From a virus (lineage: Duplodnaviria > Caudoviricetes): a DNA stretch of 64,000 nucleotides. The translations under genes and the position numbers were made by a program. The first letter of the stretch is position 1. Each line of letters opens with the position of its first letter. Where the stretch lies: the IMG/VR virus record IMGVR_UViG_3300042139_000023; one strand, given 5' to 3'. Shown here in pieces: positions 2,180 to 16,611 of the stretch. The notes beneath the pieces were generated by a model that saw nothing but the letters and a program-made list of their open reading frames with translations, was not told the DNA's origin and did no database searches.

Positions 2180-2189
2180 GGCCTAGGCC
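2180..2189. promoter_or_regulatory. GGCCTAGGCC palindrome, putative GntR operator
   Basis: Perfect 10-bp palindrome just upstream of the RBS of 2206; same motif recurs at other promoters. Confidence 0.6.
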
Positions 2190-2733: not shown

Positions 2734-3171
2734 ATGCAGAAGCTCACCACCGTCGCCCTGTCCACCGCGCTCGCGGGAGGGATGATGCTGACCGTGGCGC
2801 CCAGCGCCGATGCGGCCACCTCGATACGGGTGAAGGCCCTGAGTACCGCCGCCGCTCAGAAGGGGGACCCCTACAAGAGCGGCGCCGCTGGTCCGAACTA
2901 CTTCGACTGCTCGGGCCTGACGTACTACTCGTTCAAGAAGAACGGCAGGACGCTCCCCCGCACGGCCCAGGCCCAGTACAACAAGTCCACGAAGATCCCC
3001 GCGAGCAAGCGGACCAAGGGTGACCTGGTCTTCTTCGGCGGCGCGAACTCGATCTACCACGTCGGCATCTACGCGGGCAGCGGCTACATCTGGCACTCCC
3101 CGAAGCCCGGCAAGAAGGTCGAGAAGGTCAAGCTGTGGACCTCTTCGGTCCGGTACGGGCGGTTCGTCTGA
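2734..3171 (+). CDS. Secreted NlpC/P60 (C40) peptidoglycan endopeptidase
   Basis: Signal peptide ending ADA; GDPY..GAAGP..FDCSGL, GDLVFF and HVGIYAG motifs. Confidence 0.93.
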   Translation: MQKLTTVALSTALAGGMMLTVAPSADAATSIRVKALSTAAAQKGDPYKSGAAGPNYFDCSGLTYYSFKKNGRTLPRTAQAQYNKSTKIPASKRTKGDLVFFGGANSIYHVGIYAGSGYIWHSPKPGKKVEKVKLWTSSVRYGRFV

Positions 3172-4048: not shown

Positions 4049-4071
4049 GCAGCAGGAACGAGGAGAACGCG

Positions 4072-4281
4072 ATGAGCATGTACGAGAAGATGCTCTGTAC
4101 CGGCCCTTCGGGGTGCGGGCACCCCCGGCACGAGCACACCGGAACGCACGTGAAGGGCTCCCGGACGGCGTGCCGTCACAAGCTGGCGCAGGGCCGAGGG
4201 GTCTGCGCCTGCACCGAATTCAAGGAGGTTCGGGCTAATTCGTCCGTTTCGAAGCGGACTCCGGAAGCCGCTCGTGGCTGA
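4072..4281 (+). CDS. Small Cys/His-rich (possible zinc-binding) protein
   Basis: ATG with RBS GAGGAG; C-x4-CGH and CxC motifs. Confidence 0.6.
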   Translation: MSMYEKMLCTGPSGCGHPRHEHTGTHVKGSRTACRHKLAQGRGVCACTEFKEVRANSSVSKRTPEAARG

Positions 4282-4519
4282 GCGGCCGACCCCGCAGGAG
4301 GTCGAGACGAGCCGCCTGGCCAAGCTCCTGCTGGATCTGCACCGCTGCGAGCACGGCCGTCTGGAGGGGGACCCCTGTCTCTCGTGCGGCGGTCCGTCGG
4401 CGGGCAACCGCCTCATCCCACCAGGCACGCACATCGGGTACACCAGGTATGGGGACCGCATCGTGGTCCCCTCCTGGGAGGAGCACAACGACCCCAGAAA
4501 GTGGGTCCAAGGCCGCTGA
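4274..4519 (+). CDS. Actinophage hypothetical protein with RCEHGR..GD.C..C motif
   Basis: 81-aa ORF with Cys/His cluster. Confidence 0.65.
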   Translation: MAERPTPQEVETSRLAKLLLDLHRCEHGRLEGDPCLSCGGPSAGNRLIPPGTHIGYTRYGDRIVVPSWEEHNDPRKWVQGR

Positions 4520-4598
4520 AAAGTGGCCTGCAAGAACCAGCGAAAACGGCCCGCCGGAACGGCTCCGGCGGGCCACTCGGAGAGGAGATGAGGAGGTC

Positions 4599-6047
4599 AT
4601 GGCGATCCGCGTGAAGGTCCCGCAGGCAGCGGGAATCAGGCAGTCGATGGAGGTCCAGAACGGCTCCAAGGGCCTGGGCAGGATGTTCCGCAGGGGGCTG
4701 CACGGAAGCAAGAACTGGGTGCTGGAGCTGGACGAGAACGGCGAGCACCGCTCGGTGTGGGCCAAGGGTGGCCGGGCGTTCATCGTGCTCATCCCGGTCT
4801 GGGTGGTCCTGAGTGCGGCGACCGGCGGCCCGGAGCGGGGCGGCCACTCGACGAGCGTTCCGCAGGCGCTCGGCGCGGCTCTCCTTCTCACGGTGATCGG
4901 GCTGGCGGTGTTCTCCGCGCGTGAGCGGAAGCTGGGCCGCGAAGAGCCGTGGGTCACCGAGGGAGGCGACTCCAAGGGGATCACGGAAAGTGAGGATGGC
5001 GAGAACAAGACGCTCGTCGACCCCGCGCCGGAGAACTCCACGCAGATCCTCGAAAACCCGCAGGTCGAAGAGTCGGGTTCCGACGATGGGGCCGAACAGG
5101 AGATGGACGATTCGGAAGATTCGGTCGAAACCGAGCGATTCGAACAGCCGGATTTGCAGGAGCCGGTGCAGCAGGCCATTCCGTCCGAGGCGGAAACCCG
5201 CGTCATGACTGCGCCGGAGGCACCCACGACGGTGTTGCCGCAGGTCGTGCAGCAGGCCACTTCTGATGTCGCAGACCAGGACAAGTCGGGCCAGTCGTTC
5301 GAGGACATCGCCTCGGTGGCGAACGACTTTCGGACCGAAGCCTCGCAGCAGGCCAGTCAGGAACCGGCATATTCCCTGGTCAAGGACTCTGCGCCCGACA
5401 TGCAGGAGCCCGTGCAGCAGGCCACTCCCCAGTGGACGAAGCTGGACGTTTCCGGCGTCACCGAGGGTGATAACGGACTCATCCCTGACGAGCCCACCAC
5501 GCCCTTGCGGACCACCGTGCAGACGGCCTTGCACCAGAACCCCGATGCAAGCGAATCCGTGCAGGTCAGCCTGGAGAAGGAGCCCGTGCAGCAACCCTTG
5601 CAGGGGGAGTTGCAGGTCCAGTTCGCCCAGGCTGGGCCCTACCCGGCCGGGGAAGAGCCGGAGCACGAGGACTGGTGGGTGGTGGCACCCGACATCGAGC
5701 CCGCAGCGGAGGCGGAGGAAGTCGCCCTGGAGCCCGTTCAGGAAGATGTCGCGCCCGAGCCCGTCCCCGTCTTCGCGGAGGCCGCAGAAGCGGAGCAGGA
5801 GGCGTCTCAGGTTCCGGTCGGCCGTCACCCGATGGTCGTGCTCACCTACCTCGCCTCCCAGGCCCCGAAGTCCGGCTTCACGCCCGAGGAGAAGGAGGCG
5901 GCTCGCACGGCTGTCATCACGTGGCTGCACGGGGAGATCCAGCAGGGACACCTGAACCGCGCCGAAGGCGCTCGTGTTCTCGGCGTGGACGCCTCCACGG
6001 TCGGTCGCTGGCTGAGCGACCTGAACGACGACCCCTGGGCCGGGTGA
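4599..6047 (+). CDS. Membrane-anchored protein with acidic low-complexity linker and C-terminal HTH
   Basis: ATG 4599 with RBS AGGAGG; two hydrophobic segments near the N-terminus; C-terminal LNRAEGARVLGVDASTVGRWL. Confidence 0.75.
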   Translation: MAIRVKVPQAAGIRQSMEVQNGSKGLGRMFRRGLHGSKNWVLELDENGEHRSVWAKGGRAFIVLIPVWVVLSAATGGPERGGHSTSVPQALGAALLLTVIGLAVFSARERKLGREEPWVTEGGDSKGITESEDGENKTLVDPAPENSTQILENPQVEESGSDDGAEQEMDDSEDSVETERFEQPDLQEPVQQAIPSEAETRVMTAPEAPTTVLPQVVQQATSDVADQDKSGQSFEDIASVANDFRTEASQQASQEPAYSLVKDSAPDMQEPVQQATPQWTKLDVSGVTEGDNGLIPDEPTTPLRTTVQTALHQNPDASESVQVSLEKEPVQQPLQGELQVQFAQAGPYPAGEEPEHEDWWVVAPDIEPAAEAEEVALEPVQEDVAPEPVPVFAEAAEAEQEASQVPVGRHPMVVLTYLASQAPKSGFTPEEKEAARTAVITWLHGEIQQGHLNRAEGARVLGVDASTVGRWLSDLNDDPWAG

Positions 6048-6071
6048 CCAGGCCACACGAAATGGCCTACT

Positions 6072-6107
6072 CGAAGGGCCGCCAGACGATGTTCTGGCGG
6101 CCCTTCG
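6072..6107. terminator. 15-bp perfect hairpin, probable terminator
   Basis: CGAAGGGCCGCCAGA / TCTGGCGGCCCTTCG. Confidence 0.65.
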
Positions 6108-6150
6108 CCGTACGCTGATGCCCGACACGGATCACTGGAAAGGTGATGGC

Positions 6151-6582
6151 ATGAGCGAGAACGCCTACGACCGCAGCGCGCTGGGCCACGAGGCAGGAAA
6201 GCTGCTGGACGCCCTCCTGAAGCATGTGAACGAGATCGGGCGGGCCCAGGTGGCAACATCCGCCCTCCTGAAGGACAGCGGACTGACCCAGGGTGCCCTG
6301 GTGCGCGCCAGGGCGGAACTCACCCGGAACGGGCTGCTGCGAACGGAGCCGGGCTTCTCCTCTACCGGGCTGCGCGGGGCGAACGTCTACGTGCTGAACA
6401 TGACCGCGATCGAGCCCCCTTCCAAGGAGATTCTGGAAGACGAAACCGGACGAATCGAGGCAGACGATCCCGATGGTGCTGGTCACCAGGTTTCCGGAGA
6501 GGTTCCTGCCCCTTCCGGGCGGCATCGCAGCGAGCGGAAGGGCTTCCTTCGTGGCCTCTTCCGTGGGTCTCGTTCTTCCTGA
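6151..6582 (+). CDS. Winged-helix DNA-binding protein
   Basis: SALLKDSGLTQGALVRARAELTRNGLLRTE..ANVYVL pattern typical of wHTH domains. Confidence 0.65.
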   Translation: MSENAYDRSALGHEAGKLLDALLKHVNEIGRAQVATSALLKDSGLTQGALVRARAELTRNGLLRTEPGFSSTGLRGANVYVLNMTAIEPPSKEILEDETGRIEADDPDGAGHQVSGEVPAPSGRHRSERKGFLRGLFRGSRSS

Positions 6583-6750
6583 AGCACGGAAGGACTGCCG
6601 CCCTGTCGGAAGAAGCCGAAGAAGAGGTGGTTGTTCTCCACTCGAATCGGACGAATGAGGACACGACGGGGCGGCAGTTCGTGGCACGCTTCTCGAATCG
6701 CAGTGAATTCGGACAGAACGGACGACTTCCAGGATCCTGCCCTGGTTCGC

Positions 6751-6780
6751 TTGACACGGCCTAGGCCACGCTGGCACAGT
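6751..6780 (+). promoter_or_regulatory. Promoter of the spdB-like gene with GGCCTAGGCC operator in the spacer
   Basis: TTGACA (6751-6756), N18, CACAGT (6775-6780); palindrome at 6758-6767. Confidence 0.7.
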
Positions 6781-6845
6781 CATGCGTAACGCCCCCAAGC
6801 GAGGTTTCAGAAACCGGGGGTTTTCGGAAAGGGAGAAACCCAGAC

Positions 6846-8006
6846 ATGGACAAGACGGAAAACAACGAGAAGGTCGCGAAGGTCGACATCGACGAGGACG
6901 GTCCGAAGCGTTTCTCCGTTCTGGTTCTGATGGCGAGCATCCTCTCGATCGGCTCCCTCGCCTGGAGTACCTGGTCCTTCATCGACCTGTACAAGGTCGA
7001 CGCGCTCACCATCGACAAGCTGGGCGGGCTCAGCCTGATCTCCCTCTCGGCCGCCGCAACGATGGACGTCGTCTGGAGCGCGACGATGGTGGCCCAGTAC
7101 CAGGGCCAGAAGCTGATGGGGAAGCTGCCGAAGGTCAAGAAGTCCTTCGACTTCCTCCCGCTCATCGGGTGGATCGAGGCCCTGTTCGTCGCCGGACTGC
7201 TCGGCTACCACGGAACGACGATCGGCGGCGGCGCCGCAGGGTTCGCGGCGGTCCTCCCGGTCTTCACGAAGCTCACGTGGACGATGGCCCTGAACGGCCT
7301 GAAGGACCCGAGCGAACTGACCGACGAGGAGAAGGCCGAGATGGCGGCCGAGAAGCGGAAGTCGAAGCTCACCCGGGCCAAGGCCGACGCAACCCAGGAG
7401 CAGCATGCGGCCGACATGATCCTGAAGAACCGCGAGCACGAGGCGGCCCTGGCCGAGCAGCGGCGCCTGGCGGCCATCGAGCACGAGAAGGTCCAGGCCG
7501 AGATCGAGCGCAAGAAGCTGGAGCAGCAGGCCCAGTTCGAGCTGGAGAAGGCCCGGCTGGAGGGTGAGGCCGAGACCAAGCTGATGCGTCAGCAGCTCAA
7601 CGCGCGGCTCCAGATCGAGACCCTGCGCAGCCAGCAGGGCATCAGCCTGGAGCGCATGGACGCCGAGCAGGAGCTGCGCCTGCGGGCCCCGCTGGACCTC
7701 GGCTTCAACGTCATCCAGGGGCAGGTCTCCCGGCCGCAGCTCGCGAAGAGCAACGTCTCGTTCGAGGAGGAGGACGACGCGGAGGGCATCAGCCTGGACG
7801 GCCTGAACCTGACCGACGCCGAGCGCCGGAAGGTGAACCTGGCGGCCCGCTACTACGCCGCCGACGCGGCCGAGGGCGGCATCACCAAGGCCGCCTTCGC
7901 GAAGGCCAACCAGACGGGCGCCCCCCGGGTGACCGAGGCGACCACCGCCTTCCCGCTGGAGTGGTTCGTCGAGAACGGTCTCGCGAGCTGGATGAACCAG
8001 GGCTGA
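6846..8006 (+). CDS. spdB: SpdB-like plasmid spread protein (about four TM helices plus coiled coil)
   Basis: SLAWSTWSFIDL, DVVWSATMVAQYQG, PLIGW...LLGYHG, LPVFTKLTWTMAL and DPSELTDEE match the recalled pattern of Streptomyces plasmid SpdB proteins; long Glu/Gln/Arg coiled coil follows. Confidence 0.72.
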   Translation: MDKTENNEKVAKVDIDEDGPKRFSVLVLMASILSIGSLAWSTWSFIDLYKVDALTIDKLGGLSLISLSAAATMDVVWSATMVAQYQGQKLMGKLPKVKKSFDFLPLIGWIEALFVAGLLGYHGTTIGGGAAGFAAVLPVFTKLTWTMALNGLKDPSELTDEEKAEMAAEKRKSKLTRAKADATQEQHAADMILKNREHEAALAEQRRLAAIEHEKVQAEIERKKLEQQAQFELEKARLEGEAETKLMRQQLNARLQIETLRSQQGISLERMDAEQELRLRAPLDLGFNVIQGQVSRPQLAKSNVSFEEEDDAEGISLDGLNLTDAERRKVNLAARYYAADAAEGGITKAAFAKANQTGAPRVTEATTAFPLEWFVENGLASWMNQG

Positions 8007-8023
8007 CAAGCCCGCACGACAGA

Positions 8024-8056
8024 GAAGCCCCCGCCCCGGCGGGGGCTTCCTGTTTT
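8024..8056 (+). terminator. Intrinsic terminator
   Basis: GAAGCCCCCGCC / GGCGGGGGCTTC stem followed by CTGTTTT. Confidence 0.75.
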
Positions 8057-8105
8057 CCCCAACTTGCCTGTATTCTGGTTATGTTGAAGTGGAGAGGAGA
8101 ATGAC

Positions 8106-8420
8106 ATGGCGTGGCGAATCGAGGCATCCGGAGGAACCGGATCCGCCAATTACGTTGTGATCCAGCCGATGATGGACGACGACCCGGAGAGCGAAGTCCG
8201 GCACGCGCTCATCACCATCTCGCCGAAGGGCGGTCGCGAGCACCCGACGATTCCGATGCTTCCGCCGGGCGCCCTGTACCGGGATCGGCTCGGTATGGCG
8301 TATCGCATTCAGGAGGCAACCATCGTCGAGACAGGAACCGACGACGGTGAACACTCCATGTGGCGCTACGAGTACCTGGTCGCCTACAGCGCGACCCTTC
8401 CGCTCCGGCCCGTCTCATGA
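8106..8420 (+). CDS. Hypothetical protein
   Basis: ATG with RBS GAGGAG; 104 aa. Confidence 0.7.
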   Translation: MAWRIEASGGTGSANYVVIQPMMDDDPESEVRHALITISPKGGREHPTIPMLPPGALYRDRLGMAYRIQEATIVETGTDDGEHSMWRYEYLVAYSATLPLRPVS

Positions 8421-8626
8421 TGGAGAAGGTCGTCACCTGGGCCATCGCGAAGGCGGTCGAAGATGTTGACGACAGCGTGACCACGGCTGCCCTGATGGGC
8501 GCCGCACTGGATACCGCCACCTTCTCGGCGATCGGCGTACCGGCGACCGGGGCTGTGATCGCAGGGGCCGCCACGGGCGTGGGCCTGAACGTGGTACGCA
8601 AGCTGAGGAAGGGAGAAGGGGAATGA
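8417..8626 (+). CDS. Small Gly/Ala-rich membrane protein
   Basis: ATGA overlap; hydrophobic AIGVPATGAVIAGAATGVGL segment. Confidence 0.6.
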   Translation: MMEKVVTWAIAKAVEDVDDSVTTAALMGAALDTATFSAIGVPATGAVIAGAATGVGLNVVRKLRKGEGE

Positions 8627-9282
8627 CCGACTGGTGGAACACGTCCGCGCCGCGACAGGAGGGCGAGCCGGTTCGCGCTGAACCCGCTATCGGGTGGGAC
8701 CCGGAACCCATGCCGTCGATGCCCGCCTCTCCGCCCGAGCCTCCGGCCCAGCAGGAGGAGCCGGAAGCGCAGAAGCCGGATCGCCGCAAGAGCCTTCTCC
8801 TCGGTGCGGCCGGTGCTGCCGCCGTGGGGGTCCTGGTTTTCACCGTCATGCCGCACGACGGCTCGACTCCGGCCGACGTTCCCGGTGTGTCCGCATCATC
8901 GTCCGTCGGGGACTTCCCCCCTGCGGCCGGTGGCGGGCCCTCGGAAGGTGCACAGGACCGCGCTGAAGAATCCCGGGCACCCGCCCCGCAGAAGCCGAAG
9001 GTGGTCACCCTCTCTGCCACACCCAGTGGCTCCGGCAGCGTCGGCGCGATCGTGAAGCTGACGGTCGTGAACAACACCGACGAGGCCGTGGTCGTCATGT
9101 CGTCGATGGTGAAGGGTGACGGCCGCCCGGCGGTCATCGGAGAGGGCACGCTGGCGCCCGGCTCCCGGCGCGTAGAGCCCGGAGAGACGGCGACCGGAAC
9201 CGTGGAGTTCGCCACGAAGAAGGCGCCCGCCCAGGTGGCTCTCGTCGACCTCAGCGGGAACGTGGTGGCGGCCAGTGGCTGA
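8623..9282 (+). CDS. Single-pass membrane protein with extracellular Ig-like (DUF4352-like) domain
   Basis: TM segment LLLGAAGAAAVGVLVFTVM; C-terminal beta-rich VKLTVVNNT...VEPGETATGTVEF. Confidence 0.65.
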   Translation: MTDWWNTSAPRQEGEPVRAEPAIGWDPEPMPSMPASPPEPPAQQEEPEAQKPDRRKSLLLGAAGAAAVGVLVFTVMPHDGSTPADVPGVSASSSVGDFPPAAGGGPSEGAQDRAEESRAPAPQKPKVVTLSATPSGSGSVGAIVKLTVVNNTDEAVVVMSSMVKGDGRPAVIGEGTLAPGSRRVEPGETATGTVEFATKKAPAQVALVDLSGNVVAASG

Positions 9283-9994
9283 ACCCCTGCTGCACCGCCT
9301 TCCGTCGACCGGGAAGTACGACAAGAAGTACCAGGTGCACGGTCACGACCACCTGATCGTCGAGGCGTACTACTCCGACGCCGAAGACAGCAAGCCGGAG
9401 TTCGGGTGCTGGTGGGTGATCGACGCCCGCTTCACCGCCCTCGACCGGTACCGTCGGCAGATCGTCTTCTCCTCCACGTACCTCTCCGACATCCGGAGCT
9501 GGCTGAAGGCTGGAGGGGCGAGCCTGTGGGACCCCGAGAAGAGGAAGGCCGACAAGGACTGGAAGCCGATTCCCGAAGGGTGGTCCCCCGACGACAGCCG
9601 ACTGGAGGCGAAGCGTCGTACACCCTTCAGGCCGTTCGGCGAGAAGGGGTCACGGGCACACAGGTCGGCGCGCAGGCCCGAGGAGCCGGAGCCCAGCGAC
9701 TACCCGCTCTACCCAAGGGGCCTGACGGGCAAGAAGTACGCCGTCGTCCCCGGGTGGGTCACCTCCGTCAACGACGGTCAGCGGCACTGGATCGGATTCG
9801 GTGCACTCACCTGGCTGTACGGGGTTAATCCGGCCGAGTGCATCAAGGTCGACGACGAGACCGAACGTGGCTGGAACGACGACCTGCGGGCACATCTGAT
9901 CTGGCTGTATCCGCAACGCAGGCACGAGGACTACGAATCGATGAAGGAGGAGCTGGCCAGGGGCGAGGACGCCTTCAAGCTGATCGAGCCCTGA
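9275..9994 (+). CDS. Two-domain phage hypothetical protein
   Basis: 239-aa ORF; C-terminal KYAVVPGWVTSVNDGQRHWIG..L..LYGV pattern recalled from phage proteins. Confidence 0.7.
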   Translation: MAEPLLHRLPSTGKYDKKYQVHGHDHLIVEAYYSDAEDSKPEFGCWWVIDARFTALDRYRRQIVFSSTYLSDIRSWLKAGGASLWDPEKRKADKDWKPIPEGWSPDDSRLEAKRRTPFRPFGEKGSRAHRSARRPEEPEPSDYPLYPRGLTGKKYAVVPGWVTSVNDGQRHWIGFGALTWLYGVNPAECIKVDDETERGWNDDLRAHLIWLYPQRRHEDYESMKEELARGEDAFKLIEP

Positions 9995-10003
9995 GCATGC
10001 GAA

Positions 10004-10033
10004 AGCCCCCGTCGCACCGTTGCGACGGGGGCT
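10004..10033. terminator. Bidirectional terminator between convergent genes
   Basis: Perfect 13-bp stem AGCCCCCGTCGCA / TGCGACGGGGGCT. Confidence 0.75.
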
Positions 10034-10054
10034 CTGCACATCCGCATGGGGTCC

Positions 10055-10789
10055 TCACAGGGGCACGTGGAACGAGACCGGCCTGTTGCCCTCGCAGACC
10101 TTCACGGCGACCTCGACGACCTTGCCGTTGGCCAGGAGGACCCGACGCGCCGTCTGCGTGACGATCGCGTACGCGCCCTTCAGTTCCAGCAGCTCCCGCT
10201 CCCGGTCCGTCGCCAGACGCGACGTGATGACGGGGATCAGGTCCTTCTGCCGGGAGCCCATGCGTTCGGCCGCCAGCTCCCGCGAACCGCGCGGGGTGGA
10301 CTCGGCCATCGCCAGCTCGGGCGTCACGGCCGTCACCTCGGGCGGGTAGTACGAGTGTCCGGTGGCGACCGGCTTGCCGTCGATCTTGTTCAGGCGCTCC
10401 CGGTACACGACCCCCTCGCCGGGCTCGACGCCCAGCGCGGAAGCGATGCTGGCCGGGCACGGCACCGTCTCCACCCGCAGGATCTCCGAGGTCTCTCGGG
10501 CGCCCAGCGCCTTGCCGCTCGCCGCGTAGTTCCCGACGCGGTCCTGGACCGTCGCCGTGCGTCCCGAGATGTCCGCCACGACCGGCGGCCGGTTGCCGCT
10601 GGACGGCTCCAGGACCCCTTCCGCCGTCAGCAGCTCCACGACCTTGTCGATGGTGACGCGCGACGTCTTGTGGGTCTTGGCGAGCCTGCGGCGCGACTCC
10701 AGCGGGGTACCCGGCGCCAGATCACCAGAGGTGATCCTGGATCGGTAATGTGCCGCAATGGCACGGTACTTGGGAATCTGCTCGCTCAC
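10055..10789 (-). CDS. GntR-family (HutC/UTRA) repressor, KorA/KorSA/TraR type
   Basis: GTG 10789 with RBS GAGGAG; PKYRAIAAHYRSRITSGDLAPGTPLESRRRLAKTHKTSRVTIDK wHTH plus UTRA motifs (VVYRERL, SYYP, RLATDRERELL). Confidence 0.9.
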   Translation of the reverse strand: MSEQIPKYRAIAAHYRSRITSGDLAPGTPLESRRRLAKTHKTSRVTIDKVVELLTAEGVLEPSSGNRPPVVADISGRTATVQDRVGNYAASGKALGARETSEILRVETVPCPASIASALGVEPGEGVVYRERLNKIDGKPVATGHSYYPPEVTAVTPELAMAESTPRGSRELAAERMGSRQKDLIPVITSRLATDRERELLELKGAYAIVTQTARRVLLANGKVVEVAVKVCEGNRPVSFHVPL

Positions 10790-10808
10790 TTTTTCTCCTC
10801 GCGTTCGC

Positions 10809-10837
10809 TTGTGGCCTAGGCCGTATTGTGTCATGCT
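10809..10837. promoter_or_regulatory. Divergent promoter region with GGCCTAGGCC operator (10813-10822)
   Basis: Palindrome 24 bp upstream of the gntR start; possible rightward TTGTGG-N17-CATGCT promoter overlaps it. Confidence 0.65.
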
Positions 10838-10876
10838 GGACTCCACAACGCCAGCAGGGACCGAAGAGAGGGCGAC

Positions 10877-11041
10877 ATGGAAGGTAACGGGGAGGTTCAG
10901 GAGCCGGTTGTGCCGCAACCTCAGCACGTGCCGGAGGCTTCTCTGGGGCAGCTTTCTGACTTCGCTGCCAACCAGGATATCGCCCGATTGGAGGCAACCG
11001 TAGAGGCCAACATCGGACTAGCTTCCGACGGAAAGCCGTAA
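10877..11041 (+). CDS. Small acidic hypothetical protein
   Basis: ATG 10877 with RBS GAGAGGG; 54 aa; first gene of the divergent unit. Confidence 0.45.
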   Translation: MEGNGEVQEPVVPQPQHVPEASLGQLSDFAANQDIARLEATVEANIGLASDGKP

Positions 11042-11056
11042 CGCGGAAGGAGAAAC

Positions 11057-12019
11057 GTGGCGACGAAGGCAGCCATTCCGCCGAAGCCGAAGACGGCCCC
11101 CACCGTGCACCTCAAGGGCCAGAAGCGGAAGCCGCCACGGACCCTGAAGGGCGACCTCAAGGCACTGAAGGGGAAGCTCGGTTCGGCCACCACTCGGTGG
11201 ACCGAGAGTCAGGGCAAGGCGGAAGAGAAGAAGGAGAAGGTACGCCAGGAGGCCGAGAAGATCCTGGCCCCCGTCAAGGAAAAGGCCGCAGAGGAGAAGA
11301 AGCTCGCGGCCGAAGTGATGAAGCCCGTTCAGGCGGCTGCCGCCGCCATCAAGAACGGGTTGGATCCGGCCAACGGAAAGACCCGGCCGTACGTCACTTC
11401 GTTCATGATCTCCTCGGTGATGTCGTGGGCTGTCGGACCGCAGATTCTGACCGCTCTGTACGAGCGAATCCGCTTCGGCACCTCGACCACCGGATGGGGA
11501 ATCCTGAACGGCCCTGGCAGGTGGTTCAGGGACACGATCGGCATGGCGTACGAGTCGGACCGGCTCGGCAGCCTGATCTGGGCAGCGATCATGGGGCTCA
11601 CCCCCATGATCCTGATGTTCACCCGGAACCAGGTCGCCGGATACCTGGCCCAGAGCACGTACCGGGGGCGGATGGTCGCCTTCAGCATCAAGTGGCTGAC
11701 CCGTTCGGCCTGGCTGGTTCCGGTCCTGTTCTTCGTGGGGGTCTCGTACCCCGACGAGGTGACGGCGATCTTCGGTTCGCCGTGGACCTTCCAGATGTGG
11801 CAGTTCTGGGTCGCCGGTCTGTTCTGCATGGCGTTCTACGCGACCATGTGGGTCTTCGACCGGATCGAACGGCTCAACCGCGAGCGGTCGGCCATGTCGG
11901 AGGAGGAGCGCGAGAAGTCCCAGAGCATGGGGCCGGGCATCTTCCACGCCGTACTCATGATCCCGCTGGCGTCGATCGTCACGGGGATCCTGCTCTACGC
12001 ACCGGGCGCCGCCTGGTGA
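11057..12019 (+). CDS. Integral membrane protein with Lys/Ala-rich cytoplasmic N-terminus
   Basis: RBS GAAGGAG; several hydrophobic helices in the C-terminal two thirds. Confidence 0.8.
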   Translation: MATKAAIPPKPKTAPTVHLKGQKRKPPRTLKGDLKALKGKLGSATTRWTESQGKAEEKKEKVRQEAEKILAPVKEKAAEEKKLAAEVMKPVQAAAAAIKNGLDPANGKTRPYVTSFMISSVMSWAVGPQILTALYERIRFGTSTTGWGILNGPGRWFRDTIGMAYESDRLGSLIWAAIMGLTPMILMFTRNQVAGYLAQSTYRGRMVAFSIKWLTRSAWLVPVLFFVGVSYPDEVTAIFGSPWTFQMWQFWVAGLFCMAFYATMWVFDRIERLNRERSAMSEEEREKSQSMGPGIFHAVLMIPLASIVTGILLYAPGAAW

Positions 12020-12244
12020 TGCACAAGGGCCTCCGCTGCCGTGTGGCAGCCCAGCTACCGCTGGAAGCCGGTTCGCATCCGGCCGGAGGTACGAAGCGGA
12101 CGAACGAGCCGCTTGGAAAGGGGACGAGTCGTGTTCCAGAAGGACGACGACCTCGACGGGCTGCCGGTACTGAAGCCCGCCGGTCCCGGCCGGTGAGTCT
12201 GTGGGGCCGCTGGAGGGCGGCCCCACAGGGAAGGTGAGGGAAAA

Positions 12245-12823
12245 GTGATTCTGGCACTCACGCAGCAGCAGCAGATCGAGGTTCCGGAGAATTCGTGGAT
12301 CGGTCACACCACGATGGCAGGCTTCGGAATCATCCTGCTGGTGCTCTCGTTCCTCTGCATCAAGGGGAACAAGAAGGGTCAGCAGATGTTCCTCTGGGGC
12401 GGGCTGACCAAGGCGCTGATGACCAAGGCCGTGCAGCAGCCGACCAGCCGCATGATGACGAAGGTCCACGGAGGTCCGAGCGAAGGGTTCGACTGGCGGT
12501 CCGCAATGACATTCCTCGTGGGAATGTGGGCCATGACGTCGATCGTCAGCTCGACCGGTGGGTTCGTCGTCGACCTGGTCGACTGGTTCCAGGGTCTGGT
12601 CATGGCGCTGGCCGACTGGCCGGTCCTGTCCGACATCGGAGCCGGAGGCATCTGCCTCTTCCTCGGGTTCCTCGCGATGCGGAACAAGGATGACGACAAG
12701 CAGGATCTGATGTACGGCGCCATCTGCGGGTTCTTCTTCCCGCTCGGCGGCGGCACCTGGGCCGAGATCACACTCCAGATCGGCAACTGGATCCCGCAGC
12801 TCATGCAGAGCCCGTTCCACTGA
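12245..12823 (+). CDS. Multi-pass membrane protein
   Basis: At least four hydrophobic segments; RBS GAGGGA. Confidence 0.75.
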   Translation: MILALTQQQQIEVPENSWIGHTTMAGFGIILLVLSFLCIKGNKKGQQMFLWGGLTKALMTKAVQQPTSRMMTKVHGGPSEGFDWRSAMTFLVGMWAMTSIVSSTGGFVVDLVDWFQGLVMALADWPVLSDIGAGGICLFLGFLAMRNKDDDKQDLMYGAICGFFFPLGGGTWAEITLQIGNWIPQLMQSPFH

Positions 12824-12836
12824 GGTGGGCGGTTCC

Positions 12837-12875
12837 AACGGCCGGGCCCTTCGCGGGTCCGGCCGTTCGGCTTTT
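12837..12875 (+). terminator. Intrinsic terminator
   Basis: AACGGCCGGGCCC / GGGTCCGGCCGTT stem followed by CGGCTTTT. Confidence 0.7.
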
Positions 12876-12896
12876 CAACTCCAGTACAGGTTCACC

Positions 12897-12926
12897 TTGT
12901 TGGCTGGCCTAGGTCAATGTTAGAGT
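12897..12926 (+). promoter_or_regulatory. HrdB-type promoter of the cell-wall hydrolase operon with GGCCTAGGTC in the spacer
   Basis: TTGTTG (12897-12902), N18, TAGAGT (12921-12926); operator variant at 12906-12915. Confidence 0.7.
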
Positions 12927-12948
12927 GGAGCCCGGAGAAGGGAGGAAC

Positions 12949-13587
12949 GTGATGCGCAGGGCAGGCGGAGTATTCGTCGGCGTGTTTCTGGCAGTTGGGG
13001 CAGTTCAGGCCGTCACCGGTTTCATTCCGGCGGTCCCGTCTGCCGCGTCCGTCGCGGCGCCTCCGAAGCAGGAGGCCACCGGGGACTACAAGTTCACGGG
13101 CACCTCTGCCCCGATCCGGCCCGGCTCGGTCCCGAAGAAGCGCTGGGAAGAGCTGATCAACAAGTGGGGCAACAAGTGCAAGACGTTGACCCCCGCCCTC
13201 CTGGCGGCCCAGCTCGATCAGGAGAGCATGGGATTCAAGCCTGAAGTCATCGACGGACGACTGGACTCCCCGGCCTCCGCCAAGGGCATGGCCCAGTTCA
13301 TCGACGGCACGTGGGCCACCGAGGGGATCGACGCAAACGGGGACGGCAAGCGCAACAAGTACGACCCCGAGGACGCCATCCCCTCGGCCGCGACGCTGGA
13401 CTGCAAGCTCGCGAACGGCCTGAAGGACATACCTGGCCCCACCTGGAAGAACATGCTCGCCGGATACAACGCGGGCGGCTTCCGGGTGAAGCAGTACAAC
13501 GGCGTCCCGCCGTGCTCGTTCGCCAGGTGCGAGACCTACAACTACGTGAAGTTCATCGAGCGGAAGACGAGGAAGTACGAGCAGTGA
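12949..13587 (+). CDS. Secreted lytic transglycosylase (SLT)
   Basis: N-terminal hydrophobic/signal segment; LLAAQLDQES (catalytic Glu), AKGMAQF..GTW, YDPEDAI, AGYNAG, ETYNYV motifs. Confidence 0.9.
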   Translation: MMRRAGGVFVGVFLAVGAVQAVTGFIPAVPSAASVAAPPKQEATGDYKFTGTSAPIRPGSVPKKRWEELINKWGNKCKTLTPALLAAQLDQESMGFKPEVIDGRLDSPASAKGMAQFIDGTWATEGIDANGDGKRNKYDPEDAIPSAATLDCKLANGLKDIPGPTWKNMLAGYNAGGFRVKQYNGVPPCSFARCETYNYVKFIERKTRKYEQ

Positions 13588-14183
13588 ACCGGACTCAGCG
13601 AGCGGCCCTGGCGGTCGCCTCCGTGGCGCTGCTCGTGCCCGTCACGTCATCCTGTGCCGCGCTCAACGCGGCGCCCATCTCGAACGCCACGGCGAACCCC
13701 AACCCGGAGATCGAGAAGATCAACTGGTACTCGCCCGAGCAGCGCGCCAAGGAGGCGAAGCGACAGGAGCGGGACACCAAGGTCTCCAGTTCCCGGTCGG
13801 GCGACGCGGCGGCCGTGGCCATCGCGTACGCCCGCACGAAGATCGGAGTTCCCTACCTCTGGGGCGGCACCGGCACCAGCGCCCAGGGCGGTCGCTTCGA
13901 CTGCTCCGGCCTGACGCAGGCCGCGTACGCCAAGGCGGGGATCAGGATCCCTCGGGTCGCGAACGACCAGTACAACACGACCAGCAATCATCCATCCTGG
14001 GATGAACTGGAGCCGGGTGACCTGGTCTTCTTCGGCCAGAAGGGGAATTCGCGCTCGATTCATCACGTCGGCATCTACATCGGTGGCGGCAAGATGCTGC
14101 ACGCGCCACGGACCGGAACGAAGATCCGCGTCAACGACGTGCACTACATGAACGACTACTTCGGAGCGACGAGGGTGGCCTGA
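13584..14183 (+). CDS. NlpC/P60 peptidoglycan endopeptidase, lipoprotein
   Basis: GTGA overlap; lipobox VTSSC; IGVPYLWGG, FDCSGLTQAAY, GDLVFF, HHVGIY motifs. Confidence 0.92.
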   Translation: MNRTQRAALAVASVALLVPVTSSCAALNAAPISNATANPNPEIEKINWYSPEQRAKEAKRQERDTKVSSSRSGDAAAVAIAYARTKIGVPYLWGGTGTSAQGGRFDCSGLTQAAYAKAGIRIPRVANDQYNTTSNHPSWDELEPGDLVFFGQKGNSRSIHHVGIYIGGGKMLHAPRTGTKIRVNDVHYMNDYFGATRVA

Positions 14184-14479
14184 TGGCTGAACACACGGTG
14201 CGCGTATGGCGCAGGACAAGGCCCCTCACGGGTGACCCGACCCGGGTCATCGGCCTGGAGCGGGACGAGATCACCCTTGAGGCGCCGAGCTTGAAGTCGG
14301 CCCTGGAGCAGGTGGTCGACGCCGAGTACAAGGAGGGCGGCAAGCAGCTCCGGGTGTACGCCCAGATCGAGCGGCCCGAAGGAGGTCACCTCGGGATCGG
14401 CGATTACACCCTCTGCGAGCTGGCTTTCGCGGAAGACGAGAAGCGCCGGGCGGAGCAGTCCGGCGACATCGAGAAGTAA
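14183..14479 (+). CDS. Hypothetical protein
   Basis: Coupled start (TGATG); 98 aa. Confidence 0.7.
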   Translation: MAEHTVRVWRRTRPLTGDPTRVIGLERDEITLEAPSLKSALEQVVDAEYKEGGKQLRVYAQIERPEGGHLGIGDYTLCELAFAEDEKRRAEQSGDIEK

Positions 14480-14496
14480 CGGAAACGGAGAAACAC

Positions 14497-14967
14497 GTGG
14501 AATCCAGTCTCGGAACGCCGGACGACATGCTGCGCCAGTCGATGAAGCAGCTCGGCATCGACCGTGAGACGGCCATCTCCCTGGCCGTGAAAGGCTTCGA
14601 GGCGGCCCTGCGGGTCGAGGGCGAGGTGACCGAGGAGAAGGTGGACCGCAAGCTGGCCGAACTCTTCGTCGCCGAGAGCCGCAACCGGTCCCCCTGGTTC
14701 GTGACGCTGATGCAGGCGCACTACCGCAAGAACCTCCCCGCCTGGGAGAAGCTGCACGACGACGCGGTGGAGCGCGGCCAGGACCCGGCGACGAAGATGT
14801 CCATCACCGAGAGCGTGATCATGGAGATGGCGCAGGAACGCGTCGAGCTGGTGAAGCTCGCCAAGCAGGGCAAGTCGATCGAGGAGATCACTGAGGCGGC
14901 CTTCGCCTTCGACGACGCGCGGCCCGACGGCGAGCTGTACCTGCTCCTCGCGCGACAGATGGGCTGA
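14497..14967 (+). CDS. Hypothetical helical protein
   Basis: GTG start with RBS GGAG; 156 aa; strong GC3 bias. Confidence 0.7.
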   Translation: MESSLGTPDDMLRQSMKQLGIDRETAISLAVKGFEAALRVEGEVTEEKVDRKLAELFVAESRNRSPWFVTLMQAHYRKNLPAWEKLHDDAVERGQDPATKMSITESVIMEMAQERVELVKLAKQGKSIEEITEAAFAFDDARPDGELYLLLARQMG

Positions 14968-14979
14968 CGGAGAACCCCG

Positions 14980-15010
14980 GACGGGCGGCCGATGTGAACG
15001 GCCGCCCGTC
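14980..15010. terminator. Hairpin, probable terminator
   Basis: GACGGGCGGCCG / CGGCCGCCCGTC perfect 12-bp stem. Confidence 0.55.
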
Positions 15011-15036
15011 GTCACATCTCGGAAGGGAAGAAGGGC

Positions 15037-15366
15037 ATGACGAAGAACGCCAAGCGAGCGGGCGTCATCACGATCGAGGTCGAGCTGCTGAAGCCGCTCA
15101 GCCGGATGCGGAAGGTGGCTCTGGAGCTGGCCTGGGAGGACATGCTGGACCTCCCGCTGTCGACCGACAAGCTCCAGATCGACCGCATGGAGATCAACCT
15201 GACGCTCGGCCCGGCCGACGACGGAACGATCCTCGACGCGCCGAACTCGCTTCAGGACTTCACCTGGCAGGGCACCTACGACAGCGGCGAGTGGGTGGCC
15301 GCCGAGACCTTCATCGCCAACGCCCGGCACGACCGTCGAGTGCTGAACGTCAAGGCGATCCGGTGA
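15037..15366 (+). CDS. Hypothetical protein
   Basis: RBS GAAGGG; 109 aa. Confidence 0.65.
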   Translation: MTKNAKRAGVITIEVELLKPLSRMRKVALELAWEDMLDLPLSTDKLQIDRMEINLTLGPADDGTILDAPNSLQDFTWQGTYDSGEWVAAETFIANARHDRRVLNVKAIR

Positions 15367-16076
15367 AGGGGTCGGTGCACGCGGCGATCGGAGCCTCGGC
15401 ACCGGCAGGGCTCGTGCTCACTCAGCACGTCAGCATCCTTCAGGGTGTGGTGATGGCGGCGGTCTCGGCGGGTTTCTCCCTGATGCCCGACCTGGACCAC
15501 CCCAACGCCTGCGCCACGAAGGCCCTGGGCAAGCCCGTCCACAGGGTCGTCCACACCCTGTGCAAGGCGGTCGTGAAGGGCACGGCACTGGGCCGCGATC
15601 GAAGCTACCTGACCTTCCGGAAGGCCCGTGGCCAGGACCCCTACCACCGGACCCTGACGCATACCTTGCTCGTCTCGGTGGCGATGGGTGCCCTGGCGTA
15701 CATCCTGGCGATGGCTTCGCCCATCGCCTGCGGGGCCGTGGCCGCGCTCGGGGTCTTCACGCTCTGGCCGTTGTACCGGAAGACCATCGGCCTGGTCGTC
15801 CTCGGTGCCGCCGTTGCGGCCGTCGGGTCAGTGATCTACCTGGATCCCTGGTTGATGGCACTGGCCGTGACCGGCGGATACGCAAGTCACGTGGTGGCCG
15901 ACGGCTGCACGACGGCCGGGGTTCCGGCGTTCTGGCCGCTGACCATCCAGGGCAAGCGCTGGTGGAACATCCGGCTCCTTGGAGGATCCGTCTCTTCGGG
16001 GTCGGCCGCAGAGAAGGGACCGGCGATCGGGGTGGCAATGGCCTCCAACGCACTTCTGGTCCTGCTCAGCATGTAG
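15363..16076 (+). CDS. Membrane-bound metal-dependent hydrolase (YdjM/DUF457-like)
   Basis: GTGA overlap; G..H, PDLDHP, HRTLTHT, GYASHVVADGCT..GVP.FWP motifs; multiple TM segments. Confidence 0.85.
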   Translation: MKGSVHAAIGASAPAGLVLTQHVSILQGVVMAAVSAGFSLMPDLDHPNACATKALGKPVHRVVHTLCKAVVKGTALGRDRSYLTFRKARGQDPYHRTLTHTLLVSVAMGALAYILAMASPIACGAVAALGVFTLWPLYRKTIGLVVLGAAVAAVGSVIYLDPWLMALAVTGGYASHVVADGCTTAGVPAFWPLTIQGKRWWNIRLLGGSVSSGSAAEKGPAIGVAMASNALLVLLSM

Positions 16077-16078
16077 GG

Positions 16079-16104
16079 AAGCCCGGCCTCTGGCCGGGCT
16101 TTTC
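16079..16104 (+). terminator. Intrinsic terminator
   Basis: AAGCCCGGCC / GGCCGGGCTT stem with T tail. Confidence 0.75.
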
Positions 16105-16176
16105 TGCTCTTGGCGAATGACCCACATCTGGCGCACAATTGAAGACGGAAGTGGAGGGAAAGGTGATGCGATTCCG

Positions 16177-16611
16177 GTGACGTACGAGAAGGACGAGGTC
16201 TACGGCACGACGACGCGCCGGACTCTGGCGTACACGCGCGCCCAGGACGAGCTGCTCACGGCAGACTTCCGGCCCCGCGCGGTGCCTGCGCCTGTTCAGC
16301 CCCAGGAGCGCATGGCCCCGCTGCCGCCCGAGGAGACCAGCCCGTACGGACCGGAGGCGATCGTCCGGGCCCGCGAGATGGACTACGAGCTGACGACACG
16401 CATCCAGCAGGAGTCGCCGTACGTGGCGCAGGAGGTGGTCGAGCACAAGATCCACGACTACCGGCTGTACGTCGGCATGTGGATCGTGGCCGGTCTGAGC
16501 GCCGTGACGGCCTTCCTCACGTTCGACCTCGTCCACCTGGCCATAGCCGGTGTCGCGGTCGTCTTCGCTCTGATGTCCTCCCCCGGTCAGCAGTACCGGG
16601 ATGCGGATTGA
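16177..16611 (+). CDS. Membrane protein with two C-terminal TM helices
   Basis: GTG 16177 (alternative ATG 16117); C-terminal LYVGMWIVAGLSAVTAFLTF and LAIAGVAVVFALM. Confidence 0.65.
   Translation: MTYEKDEVYGTTTRRTLAYTRAQDELLTADFRPRAVPAPVQPQERMAPLPPEETSPYGPEAIVRAREMDYELTTRIQQESPYVAQEVVEHKIHDYRLYVGMWIVAGLSAVTAFLTFDLVHLAIAGVAVVFALMSSPGQQYRDAD

What the first reader, a model, noticed from the sequence alone, without database searches (positions are those of the whole stretch)
4599..16611. Phage carrying a plasmid-type mycelial spread module (SpdB + KorA-like repressor + membrane proteins + wall hydrolases) without TraB
Seen: about a dozen predicted membrane, secreted or lipoproteins are packed between 0.3 and 17.4 kb, including an SpdB-like protein (6846), a GntR-UTRA repressor divergent from a membrane-protein operon (10055-12823), an SLT and an NlpC/P60 (12949-14183), a TM-anchored Ig-like protein, a TM-HTH protein and a YdjM-like hydrolase. 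Known: spd genes with KorA/TraR/KorSA-type GntR repressors are hallmarks of Streptomyces conjugative plasmids and integrative elements, where they support spread of DNA within the mycelium (pock formation), normally with the FtsK-like TraB translocase. No TraB/FtsK is in this window. Inference: the phage may have co-opted this module to pass its genome or virions through hyphal cross-walls or between hyphae, or to remodel the envelope for superinfection exclusion. This would be a phage spread system that bypasses lysis and re-adsorption.
Basis: partly seen in the sequence, partly recalled or inferred. Interest (0 to 1): 0.92.

Follow-up and report, generated by a model that had tools for sequence, protein, structure and literature searches.

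The report
Plasmid-like SpdB envelope regulon in phage
A large Streptomyces phage carries a conserved, repressor-controlled block of membrane and wall-cutting genes that includes a relative of the plasmid 'spread' protein SpdB. The block is real and testable, but SpdB relatives on actinophages, and the idea that they help phage DNA spread through hyphae, were already published.

Summary
The window is a cluster-BM-type Streptomyces siphovirus, 89.7% identical in DNA to phage Frankenweenie.

- **SpdB:** ORF 6846-8006 is an SpdB-family protein: four TM helices, a ~120-aa helix and a C-terminal HTH-like bundle. Close homologues carry Pfam SpdB_N. Its nearest non-phage relatives lie in tra/spd operons of ~85-95 kb Streptomyces plasmids.
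- **GntR:** The GntR-UTRA gene (10055-10789, minus strand) is 40-42% identical to Kor-position GntRs of those plasmids and of an AICE.
- **Core block:** SpdB, GntR, two orphan polytopic membrane proteins, SLT and YdjM are syntenic across divergent large actinophage-like contigs, including a 260-kb jumbo phage and a Rhodococcus-derived contig.
- **Operator:** The palindrome YGGCCTAGGCCR sits in the promoters of spdB, gntR with its divergent operon, SLT-NlpC/P60 and a YAcAr-NlpC/P60 pair. It is conserved where the proteins are only 44-70% identical.

Two corrections. Only SpdB and GntR have plasmid counterparts. The genome also encodes an anchor-less FtsK-like translocase about 13 kb upstream of the window.

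Function is untested. Thoma et al. 2015 already proposed spread of phage DNA for phiC31 and VWB SpdB2 homologues. I rate this a new variant of a known kind, of moderate interest. First readers of this scan noted a similar cluster in another genome (e1-3420520).

The parts
2180..2189 (.). Operator copy O1 (GGCCTAGGCC), directly after a TAGGAT -10-like hexamer and upstream of the 2206 gene
   Evidence: conserved at the same place in L014-L019 and L010
2206..2673 (+). YAcAr/DprA-like protein, first gene behind O1
   Evidence: phrog_289; the orthologue in L010 carries PF10686 YAcAr
2734..3171 (+). Secreted NlpC/P60 endopeptidase with a Sec signal peptide
   Evidence: PHROG tail-lysin NlpC/P60 families; DCSG and HVGIY motifs
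4599..6047 (+). Protein with two TM segments, a ~300-aa acidic spacer and a C-terminal HTH
   Evidence: weak HTH_28 hit; TM prediction; sequence; the orthologue in L023 hits HTH_3; syntenic in all relatives
6751..6780 (+). spdB promoter: TTGACA, an 18-nt spacer holding operator O2 (6758-6767), then CACAGT
   Evidence: the operator lies ~88 bp upstream of spdB in every BM-type relative and in the 260-kb relative
6846..8006 (+). SpdB-family membrane protein (P0001): four TM helices, a ~120-aa continuous helix and a C-terminal 4-helix HTH-like domain
8024..8049 (+). Intrinsic terminator (11-bp stem, 9 G-C pairs) that makes spdB monocistronic
8623..9282 (+). Single-TM protein with a beta-rich C-terminal ectodomain. 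It belongs to the variable insert between spdB and gntR.
   Evidence: absent from L007 and L008, where spdB abuts gntR
10055..10789 (-). GntR/HutC-type repressor (wHTH + UTRA), Kor-like in position
   Evidence: Pfam GntR 4e-7 and UTRA 7.6e-16; phrog_10724; 40-43% identity to plasmid, AICE and L011 GntRs
10813..10822 (.). Operator O3, in the gntR 5' region and in the spacer of the divergent + strand promoter (TTGTGG, 17 nt, CATGCT)
10874..11041 (+). Small ORF, first gene of the operon divergent from gntR
   Evidence: a 39-43-aa ORF lies at this place in L007, L008 and Frankenweenie
11057..12019 (+). Orphan polytopic membrane protein (P0228): basic N-terminal helix and conserved SW.IGPQ, GPGRWFRD and PLASV motifs
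   Evidence: no Pfam, atlas or fold match
12245..12823 (+). Orphan ~4-TM membrane protein (P0229)
12906..12915 (.). Operator O4 (GGCCTAGGTC, one mismatch) in the spacer of TTGTTG, 18 nt, TAGAGT, upstream of SLT
   Evidence: the same variant at the same place in L014-L018, and the exact form in L019 and L010
12949..13587 (+). Exported or membrane-anchored SLT lytic transglycosylase
   Evidence: Pfam SLT 4.7e-9; catalytic motifs; orthologues in L008 and L010
13584..14183 (+). Exported NlpC/P60 endopeptidase; its start overlaps the SLT stop
   Evidence: Pfam NLPC_P60 1.9e-28; 58% identity to the L011 orthologue
15363..16076 (+). YdjM-family membrane-bound putative metal hydrolase
   Evidence: Pfam YdjM 9.9e-18; orthologues in L008-L011
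16186..16611 (+). Protein with two C-terminal TM segments; the last gene of the flagged stretch. The start coordinate is mapped from the Frankenweenie gp98 annotation and was not checked in the window.

Best explanation
**Shown.**
- This is a conserved cell-envelope gene block of large prolate-head actinophages.
- Its genes share an inferred operator. The operator has the shape of a HutC/DasR-type site and probably belongs to the block's own GntR-UTRA repressor.
- Two genes, spdB-like and gntR, are homologous to the Spd/Kor genes of Streptomyces conjugative plasmids and AICEs.
- The other core genes are phage-lineage-specific: two polytopic membrane proteins, an exported SLT, an exported NlpC/P60 and YdjM.

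**Inferred mechanism.**
1. GntR keeps these potentially lethal envelope genes off, as Kor does for kil genes on plasmids, until a signal relieves it.
2. The SpdB-like protein then oligomerises in the membrane as a DNA-binding pore.
3. The two orphan membrane proteins act with it.
4. The Sec-exported glycan and peptide cutters thin the peptidoglycan locally, most plausibly at vegetative cross-walls.
5. Replicating phage DNA or other phage products can then reach neighbouring hyphal compartments before lysis. The anchor-less FtsK-like ATPase encoded ~13 kb upstream may drive this.

My confidence is about 0.8 in the anatomy and regulon, and about 0.35 in the spread mechanism.
For: - **SpdB membership and plasmid homology:**
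- **Published SpdB2 properties** (pore former, DNA and peptidoglycan binding, required for intramycelial spreading), and the earlier suggestion of such a role for phage homologues: PMC4447253.
- **Six-gene synteny** at 23-51% protein identity in L007-L009 and L011; 44-86% in L010 and L019. L009 comes from a Rhodococcus assembly.
- **Operator:**
  - All 6 exact genome copies lie in promoter or 5'UTR positions on the strand of the downstream gene.
  - Three copies lie in -35/-10 spacers.
  - Positions are conserved in relatives whose SpdB is 44-85% identical.
  - The Rhodococcus relative has a different shared motif upstream of both spdB-like and gntR.
- **Hydrolases:** intact catalytic motifs and export signals. 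A separate endolysin-holin cassette exists next door.
- **FtsK-like ATPase** with a C-terminal HTH is conserved in all five relatives tested.
Against: - There is no experiment of any kind.
- Only SpdB and GntR have plasmid counterparts; SpdB3, Spd79 and other Spd homologues were not found.
- spdB is monocistronic, with its own promoter and terminator, and is not coupled to a translocase.
- The FtsK-like protein is 19-24 kb away, has no TM anchor and shows no BLAST similarity to plasmid TraB.
- The operator also precedes unrelated genes elsewhere in the genome, so the regulon is broader than an envelope module.
- The count of exact palindromes (6) is no higher than that of a control palindrome (5). 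Only their placement is non-random.
- The phage looks lytic: no integrase, resolvase or ParB was found (PMC10652959).
- SpdB2's pore activity fits a holin-like or kil role equally well.
Confidence: 0.35

Rival explanations
1. **Host-takeover or exclusion module.** The SpdB-like protein and its membrane partners act as 'kil' functions. They would arrest hyphal growth, septation or development, as Spd/Tra expression does in pocks. Alternatively they would block entry of other phage or plasmid DNA (superinfection exclusion). GntR would be the kill-override timer.
For: - Pocks reflect growth retardation caused by Tra/Spd expression, and GntR-type Kor/TraR proteins control these genes (PMC4447253).
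- The architecture is the same here: a GntR divergent from membrane genes, with the operator in the promoter spacers.
- The regulon also includes an HTH gene followed by small membrane proteins elsewhere in the genome.
Against: - Exported SLT, NlpC/P60 and YdjM are not expected for exclusion or growth arrest.
- The module is conserved in apparently lytic phages, where long-term exclusion brings little benefit.
Confidence: 0.25
2. **Accessory lysis or wall-softening module.** A pore former and Sec-exported glycan and peptide cutters pre-weaken the thick hyphal wall, so that the ~300-nm prolate virions can leave. They would work with the neighbouring endolysin-holin cassette.
For: - The block starts directly beside, and divergent from, the endolysin/holin/membrane-protein cassette.
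- SpdB2 let cytoplasmic T7 lysozyme reach the wall in E. coli, which is holin-like behaviour (PMC4447253).
- The SLT and NlpC/P60 hit PHROG lysis and tail-lysin families.
- Capsids are 285-334 nm long.
Against: - A full lysis cassette already exists.
- A C-terminal HTH-like domain and a 120-aa coiled coil have no known role in holins.
- Repression from sigma-70-like promoters resembles early or conditional expression more than late lysis timing, but this is untested.
Confidence: 0.2
3. **Plasmid-state function or remnant.** The lineage includes, or descends from, phage-plasmids. On this reading Spd/Kor serves, or once served, to spread an extrachromosomal prophage through the mycelium.
For: - A relative on a 185,382-bp contig of a cultured Streptomyces assembly has a ParA/MipZ-type ATPase and a partner gene directly behind gntR.
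- Contigs of 203, 253 and 272 kb from cultured Rhodococcus and Streptomyces isolates carry the module.
- The nearest plasmid homologues include pSAM1, which has a terminase gene next to its tra region.
- Streptomyces plasmid-phages such as pZL12 are documented.
Against: - This genome has no ParA-like gene, ParB, integrase or resolvase, although the record is only 89% complete.
- Frankenweenie is reported to have no integrase or repressor.
- The module's proteins are well conserved rather than decaying.
Confidence: 0.1
4. **No functional unit.** These are unrelated accessory genes that merely sit together in a variable early region.
For: - Several genes between spdB and gntR vary between relatives.
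- NlpC/P60 is absent from L008, L009 and L010 at this position.
Against: - The same six genes keep their order and orientation down to 23-35% protein identity.
- They share a conserved operator.
Confidence: 0.05

Closest known systems
Streptomyces plasmid spread/transfer system (pSVH1 spdB3-spd79-spdB2, TraR, TraB; pIJ101 spd/kor/tra)
   Same: - An SpdB-family four-TM protein.
- A GntR-type repressor encoded divergently from membrane-protein genes, with an operator in the intergenic region.
- Control of probably lethal envelope genes by a Kor-like repressor.
   Different: - No SpdB3, Spd79 or SpdA homologues were found.
- spdB is monocistronic.
- There is no membrane-anchored TraB. The only FtsK-like gene is distant, anchor-less and not TraB-like in sequence.
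- The block adds exported SLT, NlpC/P60 and YdjM and two orphan polytopic proteins that the plasmids lack.
tra/spd loci of ~85-95 kb Streptomyces plasmids (pSAM1 NZ_CP012383, pCQ3 NC_013449, NZ_CP108975)
   Same: - These hold the nearest non-phage homologues of both the SpdB-like protein (31-35% identity over the TM domain and the start of the helix) and the GntR (40%).
- The GntR is divergent from the operon that holds the spdB-like gene.
   Different: - In the plasmids the spdB-like gene lies inside a long operon that ends in TraA/TraB or an FtsK-type translocase.
- The C-terminal parts do not align.
- The plasmids have no P0228-like protein and no YdjM.
SpdB2 homologues of temperate actinophages phiC31 and VWB (VWB gp24)
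   Same: - A DUF2637/SpdB-type protein encoded by a Streptomyces phage.
- Spread of phage DNA was already suggested for them (PMC4447253).
- VWB gp24 is hit by an AICE DUF2637 protein.
   Different: - It is a different SpdB sublineage. P0001 finds only the 7 BM-type phages among 50,697 phage records.
- Here the gene sits in a conserved six-gene regulon with its own GntR, in 170-260 kb apparently lytic phages.
DasR/HutC-type GntR regulators and the dre operator (own knowledge: dre core TGGTCTAGACCA)
   Same: - wHTH + UTRA architecture.
- A 12-bp palindrome, YGGCCTAGGCCR, that differs from the dre core only at one symmetric position pair.
   Different: - No ligand or binding data exist.
- Its best NCBIfam scores, to PhnF and HutC models, are far below their cut-offs.
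- The resemblance to dre is recalled from memory, not tested.
Wall hydrolases of Gram-positive conjugation systems (CwlT, TcpG, PrgK type; own knowledge)
   Same: - A glycan cutter and an NlpC/P60 peptide cutter that are exported together.
   Different: - Here they are two separate, overlapping genes.
- No VirB4/VirD4-type machinery was seen nearby.
- NlpC/P60 is not part of the conserved core.

Membership tests
SpdB / SpdB2 (Pfam SpdB_N PF27080 + HTH_SpdB_C PF27079) | N-terminal four-TM domain that matches the SpdB_N profile | tested here: met
   This is indirect. The local Pfam copy lacks PF27080, so P0001 itself could not be scanned. Homologues at 54-78% identity and the syntenic homologues in L007, L008 and L023 carry precomputed PF27080 hits. 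AF2 gives 4 TM helices. Foldseek gives full-length matches to DUF2637 and HTH proteins.
SpdB / SpdB2 | C-terminal HTH_SpdB_C domain | tested here: inconclusive
   AF2 gives a 4-helix bundle at 324-376 with pLDDT 80-88. The nearest atlas clusters carry PF27079, but scores are below 0.9. The C-terminus does not align with the plasmid homologues.
SpdB / SpdB2 | Encoded in a translationally coupled spd operon next to traB | tested here: not met
   The gene has its own promoter with an operator and its own terminator. No translocase gene is adjacent.
SpdB / SpdB2 | Oligomeric pore, DNA and peptidoglycan binding, required for pock formation and spreading | not testable with these tools
   These properties are known for pSVH1 SpdB2 only (PMC4447253).
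KorA / TraR / KorSA-type GntR repressors | GntR wHTH and a UTRA effector domain (HutC subfamily) | tested here: met
   Pfam GntR 30 bits and UTRA 58.6 bits, both above their cut-offs.
KorA / TraR / KorSA-type GntR repressors | Divergent from the genes it controls, with operators in its own promoter and in the spd promoters | tested here: met
   The position and conservation of YGGCCTAGGCCR meet this. Binding by this protein is inferred, not shown.
KorA / TraR / KorSA-type GntR repressors | Closest relatives are the Kor proteins of plasmids and AICEs | tested here: inconclusive
   It is 40-42% identical to GntRs in the Kor position of plasmids and an AICE. It is 46% identical to a chromosomal GntR with no mobile-element context.
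TraB (FtsK-like conjugative translocase) | FtsK/SpoIIIE motor domain encoded with the spd genes | tested here: not met
   None lies in the window. The one genome match is ~13 kb upstream, at 21.4 bits against a cut-off of 24. It does match phrog_17958, 'FtsK/SpoIIIE-like', at 7.8e-42.
TraB (FtsK-like conjugative translocase) | N-terminal membrane anchor and sequence similarity to plasmid TraB | tested here: not met
   No hydrophobic segment is visible in the 433-aa sequence. BLAST against the plasmid FtsK-type (TraB-position) translocases of L003 and L004 gives E > 0.8.
TraB (FtsK-like conjugative translocase) | C-terminal wHTH that reads clt/TRS repeats | tested here: inconclusive
   There is a weak HTH_IclR hit at 382-425 (E 0.0012). 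No repeat target was sought systematically.
Phage-plasmid (pZL12-type) | Partition and replication genes for a plasmid state | tested here: not met
   The 168-kb record (89% complete) has no ParB, ParA-like gene, integrase or resolvase. One relative does carry a ParA/MipZ-type gene in the module.

The most novel reading that the evidence does not exclude
Large prolate-head actinophages would possess a dedicated, repressor-gated apparatus that moves replicating phage DNA through vegetative cross-walls from compartment to compartment. The parts would be an SpdB-type pore, two orphan membrane proteins, exported SLT/NlpC-P60/YdjM and a soluble FtsK-like motor. This would be virion-independent cell-to-cell spread of a bacterial virus. 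In ParA-bearing relatives the same apparatus would sustain a plasmid-like carrier state in the mycelium.
Probability: 0.15. Interest if true: 0.9.

Novelty: new variant of a known kind. Interest (0 to 1): 0.55.

Why it matters
How phages propagate inside a compartmented mycelium is poorly understood. The suggestion that actinophage SpdB homologues help spread phage DNA has stood untested since at least 2015.

This analysis turns it into a concrete, testable unit:
- a defined six-gene core;
- a defined operator;
- a candidate motor;
- cultured, sequenced phages (Satis, JustBecause, Frankenweenie) on tractable hosts (S. lividans, S. scabiei).

It also shows that the Spd/Kor pair has been joined to phage-specific wall-remodelling genes. 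That is a new combination, and it separates what came from plasmids from what did not.

Tried and rejected
- **Local Pfam, NCBIfam and PHROGs scans of P0001.** No usable hit. DUF2637 (PF10935) did not match anywhere in the genome or in ten remote family members.
- **Names for remote SpdB-profile hits.** None were informative.
- **P0228 and P0229.** They have no Pfam hit and only uninformative atlas neighbours. The AF2 model of P0228 (pLDDT 64) found no fold match. The family carries no Pfam domain in 77 members.
- **Genome-contig scan with the SpdB alignment.** No confirmed relatives.
- **Fetching SCP2 by an accession recalled from memory, and reading the pZL12 paper.** Neither is held.
- **'Phage-plasmid' for this genome.** Rejected: no ParA-like gene, ParB, integrase or resolvase.
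- **'The whole block is plasmid-type'.** Rejected: only 2 of the ~26 ORFs compared across 0.3-18 kb match the plasmid loci.
- **Enrichment of the palindrome by count alone.** Rejected: 6 copies against 5 for a control palindrome. The argument rests on placement and conservation.
- **tRNA.** The tRNA that Frankenweenie annotates between the two membrane genes was not found by ARAGORN in this window.

Full report
**What the window is**

- The flagged 12 kb is 89.7% identical in DNA to Streptomyces phage Frankenweenie (200 kb). It is 76-78% identical to Satis, Kradal, JustBecause, Kela, EhyElimayoE and Quantum.
- These are cluster-BM siphoviruses with very long prolate heads, 184-200 kb genomes and ~1 kb terminal repeats. 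Frankenweenie is reported to have no integrase or repressor.
- The window is the minus strand of a 168-kb IMG/VR record, 89% complete.
- I found no integrase, resolvase, ParB or ParA-like gene in that record.
- Frankenweenie's annotation gives the gene map. It calls the key genes only 'membrane protein', 'helix-turn-helix DNA-binding domain protein', 'glycosyltransferase' (the SLT) and 'hydrolase'.

**Checking the observation**

- Pfam confirms GntR+UTRA, SLT, NlpC/P60 and YdjM at the stated places.
- A further secreted NlpC/P60 lies at 2734-3171.
- Catalytic motifs and export signals can be read directly from the sequences.
- A strongly hydrophobic 19-mer occurs in 8 of 19 ORFs here, against 15 of 178 elsewhere in the genome (p = 3e-4).
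- The GntR start is 10789, not 10927.

**Is 6846-8006 an SpdB?**

- The local libraries were silent.
- Eight homologues at 54-78% identity carry PF27080. The atlas names that family SpdB_N. The nearest atlas clusters combine SpdB_N with HTH_SpdB_C.
- tblastn against 72,556 plasmids finds 13 records, 12 of them Streptomyces plasmids. The match is 31-35% identity over the TM domain (E down to 2e-16).
- In the three plasmids I inspected, the hit lies inside an operon divergent from a GntR gene. The operon ends in TraA/TraB, an FtsK translocase or a 'conjugative DNA transfer' protein.
- The AF2 model has four TM helices, one continuous helix at 160-278 and a confident 4-helix C-terminal bundle.
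- Foldseek returns full-length matches to DUF2637 and HTH proteins.
- An exhaustive profile search finds only 67 clusters among 1.84 billion representatives, so this is a narrow SpdB sublineage.
- Among 50,697 phage records, only the seven BM-type phages have it.

**What is and is not plasmid-like**

- All-against-all BLAST of ~26 window ORFs (0.3-18 kb) against the plasmid loci matches only SpdB and GntR (40% identity over 230 aa).
- A 42%-identical GntR sits in the Kor position of a textbook AICE. That element runs serine recombinase, Prim-Pol/D5 replication genes, GntR, small genes, DUF2637, large proteins.
- A 46%-identical GntR sits in an ordinary chromosomal context. 'Kor-like' is therefore plausible but not exclusive.
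- The plasmids have no relative of the 320-aa membrane protein and no YdjM.

**A deeply conserved block**

Context look-ups of remote SpdB and GntR homologues show the same order each time:

1. SpdB-like gene
2. 0-6 variable small genes
3. GntR, on the opposite strand
4. a ~40-aa ORF
5. a ~290-330-aa polytopic protein
6. a ~170-220-aa membrane protein
7. SLT
8. optionally M23 or NlpC/P60
9. YdjM
10. further on, a UvrD-type helicase

- It is seen in two metagenome contigs, a 203-kb Rhodococcus qingshengii contig, and 253-kb and 272-kb Streptomyces contigs. It is also seen in a 259.6-kb jumbo phage with terminal repeats.
- The short L007 contig ends within the SLT gene, so its later genes were not seen.
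- In the 272-kb contig a set of fatty-acid-synthase-like genes separates gntR from a weak SpdB-like match.
- Orthology holds at 23-51% identity in the distant cases. In BM relatives the whole 0.3-18 kb stretch is collinear.
- The P0228 family has 77 members and no Pfam domain, mostly on short metagenome contigs; its longest contigs are of BM-phage size, up to 253 kb.

**Regulation**

- The lead was a first-reader note on GGCCTAGGCC (e1-5404597).
- The window has three exact copies and one single-mismatch copy. They precede the 2206 gene, spdB, gntR with its divergent operon, and SLT.
- In three of these the palindrome lies in the spacer of a TTGnnn / 17-18 nt / nAnnnT promoter.
- The genome holds 6 exact copies, no more than a control palindrome.
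- All six lie just upstream of a gene on the matching strand.
- The four local sites are kept in relatives whose SpdB is only 44% identical, and in L007.
- L011 has GCCTAGGC twice in its gntR intergenic region. The Rhodococcus relative shares a different motif between its spdB-like and gntR upstream regions.
- spdB ends in a strong terminator.
- The flanks extend the site to YGGCCTAGGCCR. From my own knowledge, this is one symmetric change away from the DasR dre core.

**The missing TraB**

- The only FtsK/SpoIIIE signal in the genome is a 433-aa ORF ~13 kb upstream of the window, on the same strand.
- It matches phrog_17958, 'FtsK/SpoIIIE-like', at 7.8e-42 and has a weak C-terminal HTH.
- Frankenweenie gp156 is annotated 'FtsK-like DNA translocase'.
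- It is conserved in all five relatives tested.
- It has no membrane anchor and no BLAST similarity to plasmid TraB.

**Prior knowledge**

- Thoma et al. 2015 (PMC4447253) showed that pSVH1 spdB3, spd79 and spdB2 are needed for spreading and pock formation.
- They showed that SpdB2 forms pores and binds peptidoglycan, citing earlier work for its DNA binding, and that TraR is a GntR regulator.
- An AICE DUF2637 protein does hit VWB gp24.
- No paper I could find describes the BM-type block or its operator.

**Verdict**

- The anatomy is real, conserved and co-regulated.
- Its plasmid ancestry is limited to the SpdB/GntR pair.
- The spread mechanism remains an inference. I hold it at about one in three, against kil/exclusion, accessory-lysis and plasmid-state readings.
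- It is a new variant of a known kind, of moderate interest, and ready for genetics in cultured phages.

Noticed in passing
L023:8881-10676 (GCA_024295805.1, contig of 185,382 bp): This BM-type relative comes from the assembly of a cultured Streptomyces isolate. Directly downstream of gntR it carries a ParA/MipZ-type ATPase (above the Pfam cut-offs) and a 309-aa partner gene. That hints that some members of the lineage are plasmid-like prophages. This window's genome has no such gene.
   Followed up: partly
L009, L010, L011 (contigs of 203, 253 and 272 kb): Contigs of whole-phage size that carry the module occur in assemblies of cultured Rhodococcus qingshengii and two Streptomyces isolates. 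In L011 a set of fatty-acid-synthase-like genes is inserted between gntR and the SpdB-like gene. L010 has two adjacent GntR paralogues.
   Followed up: partly
G000:C1:145863-147164, ~13 kb upstream of the window start (L002:838-2139, minus strand): FtsK/SpoIIIE-like ATPase of 433 aa with a C-terminal HTH and no TM anchor. It is conserved in all relatives tested.
   Followed up: yes
window 1860-1973: Three copies of CTACCG-N4-GTAAC, spaced 43 and 55 bp apart, lie in a non-coding stretch. Longer 27-nt direct repeats and a 22-nt inverted repeat overlap them. The stretch sits just upstream of operator O1. It could be an origin or another protein-binding array.
   Followed up: partly
G000:C1:36040, 44564 and 140569 (outside the window): Three further exact operator copies, each just upstream of a gene. 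One precedes an HTH protein followed by two small membrane proteins. The putative GntR regulon therefore extends beyond the envelope block.
   Followed up: partly
L004:16703-18229 (pSAM1): A 'terminase family protein' gene lies immediately after the tra region of the plasmid that holds one of the closest SpdB/GntR homologues. This suggests that the plasmid family may be related to the documented plasmid-phage pZL12.
   Followed up: no
window 12020-12244: Frankenweenie annotates a tRNA-Sec(tca) between the two membrane-protein genes. ARAGORN finds no tRNA anywhere in window 1-20000.
   Followed up: partly
window 12949-13587: The SLT lytic transglycosylase orthologue is annotated 'glycosyltransferase' in Frankenweenie (gp104), which is probably a misnomer.
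   Followed up: yes
window 300-968: Lipoprotein with a signal peptide, a LAVSAC lipobox and a long Ser/Lys-rich low-complexity region. It lies between the lysis cassette and the block. Only its two ends are conserved in relatives.
   Followed up: partly
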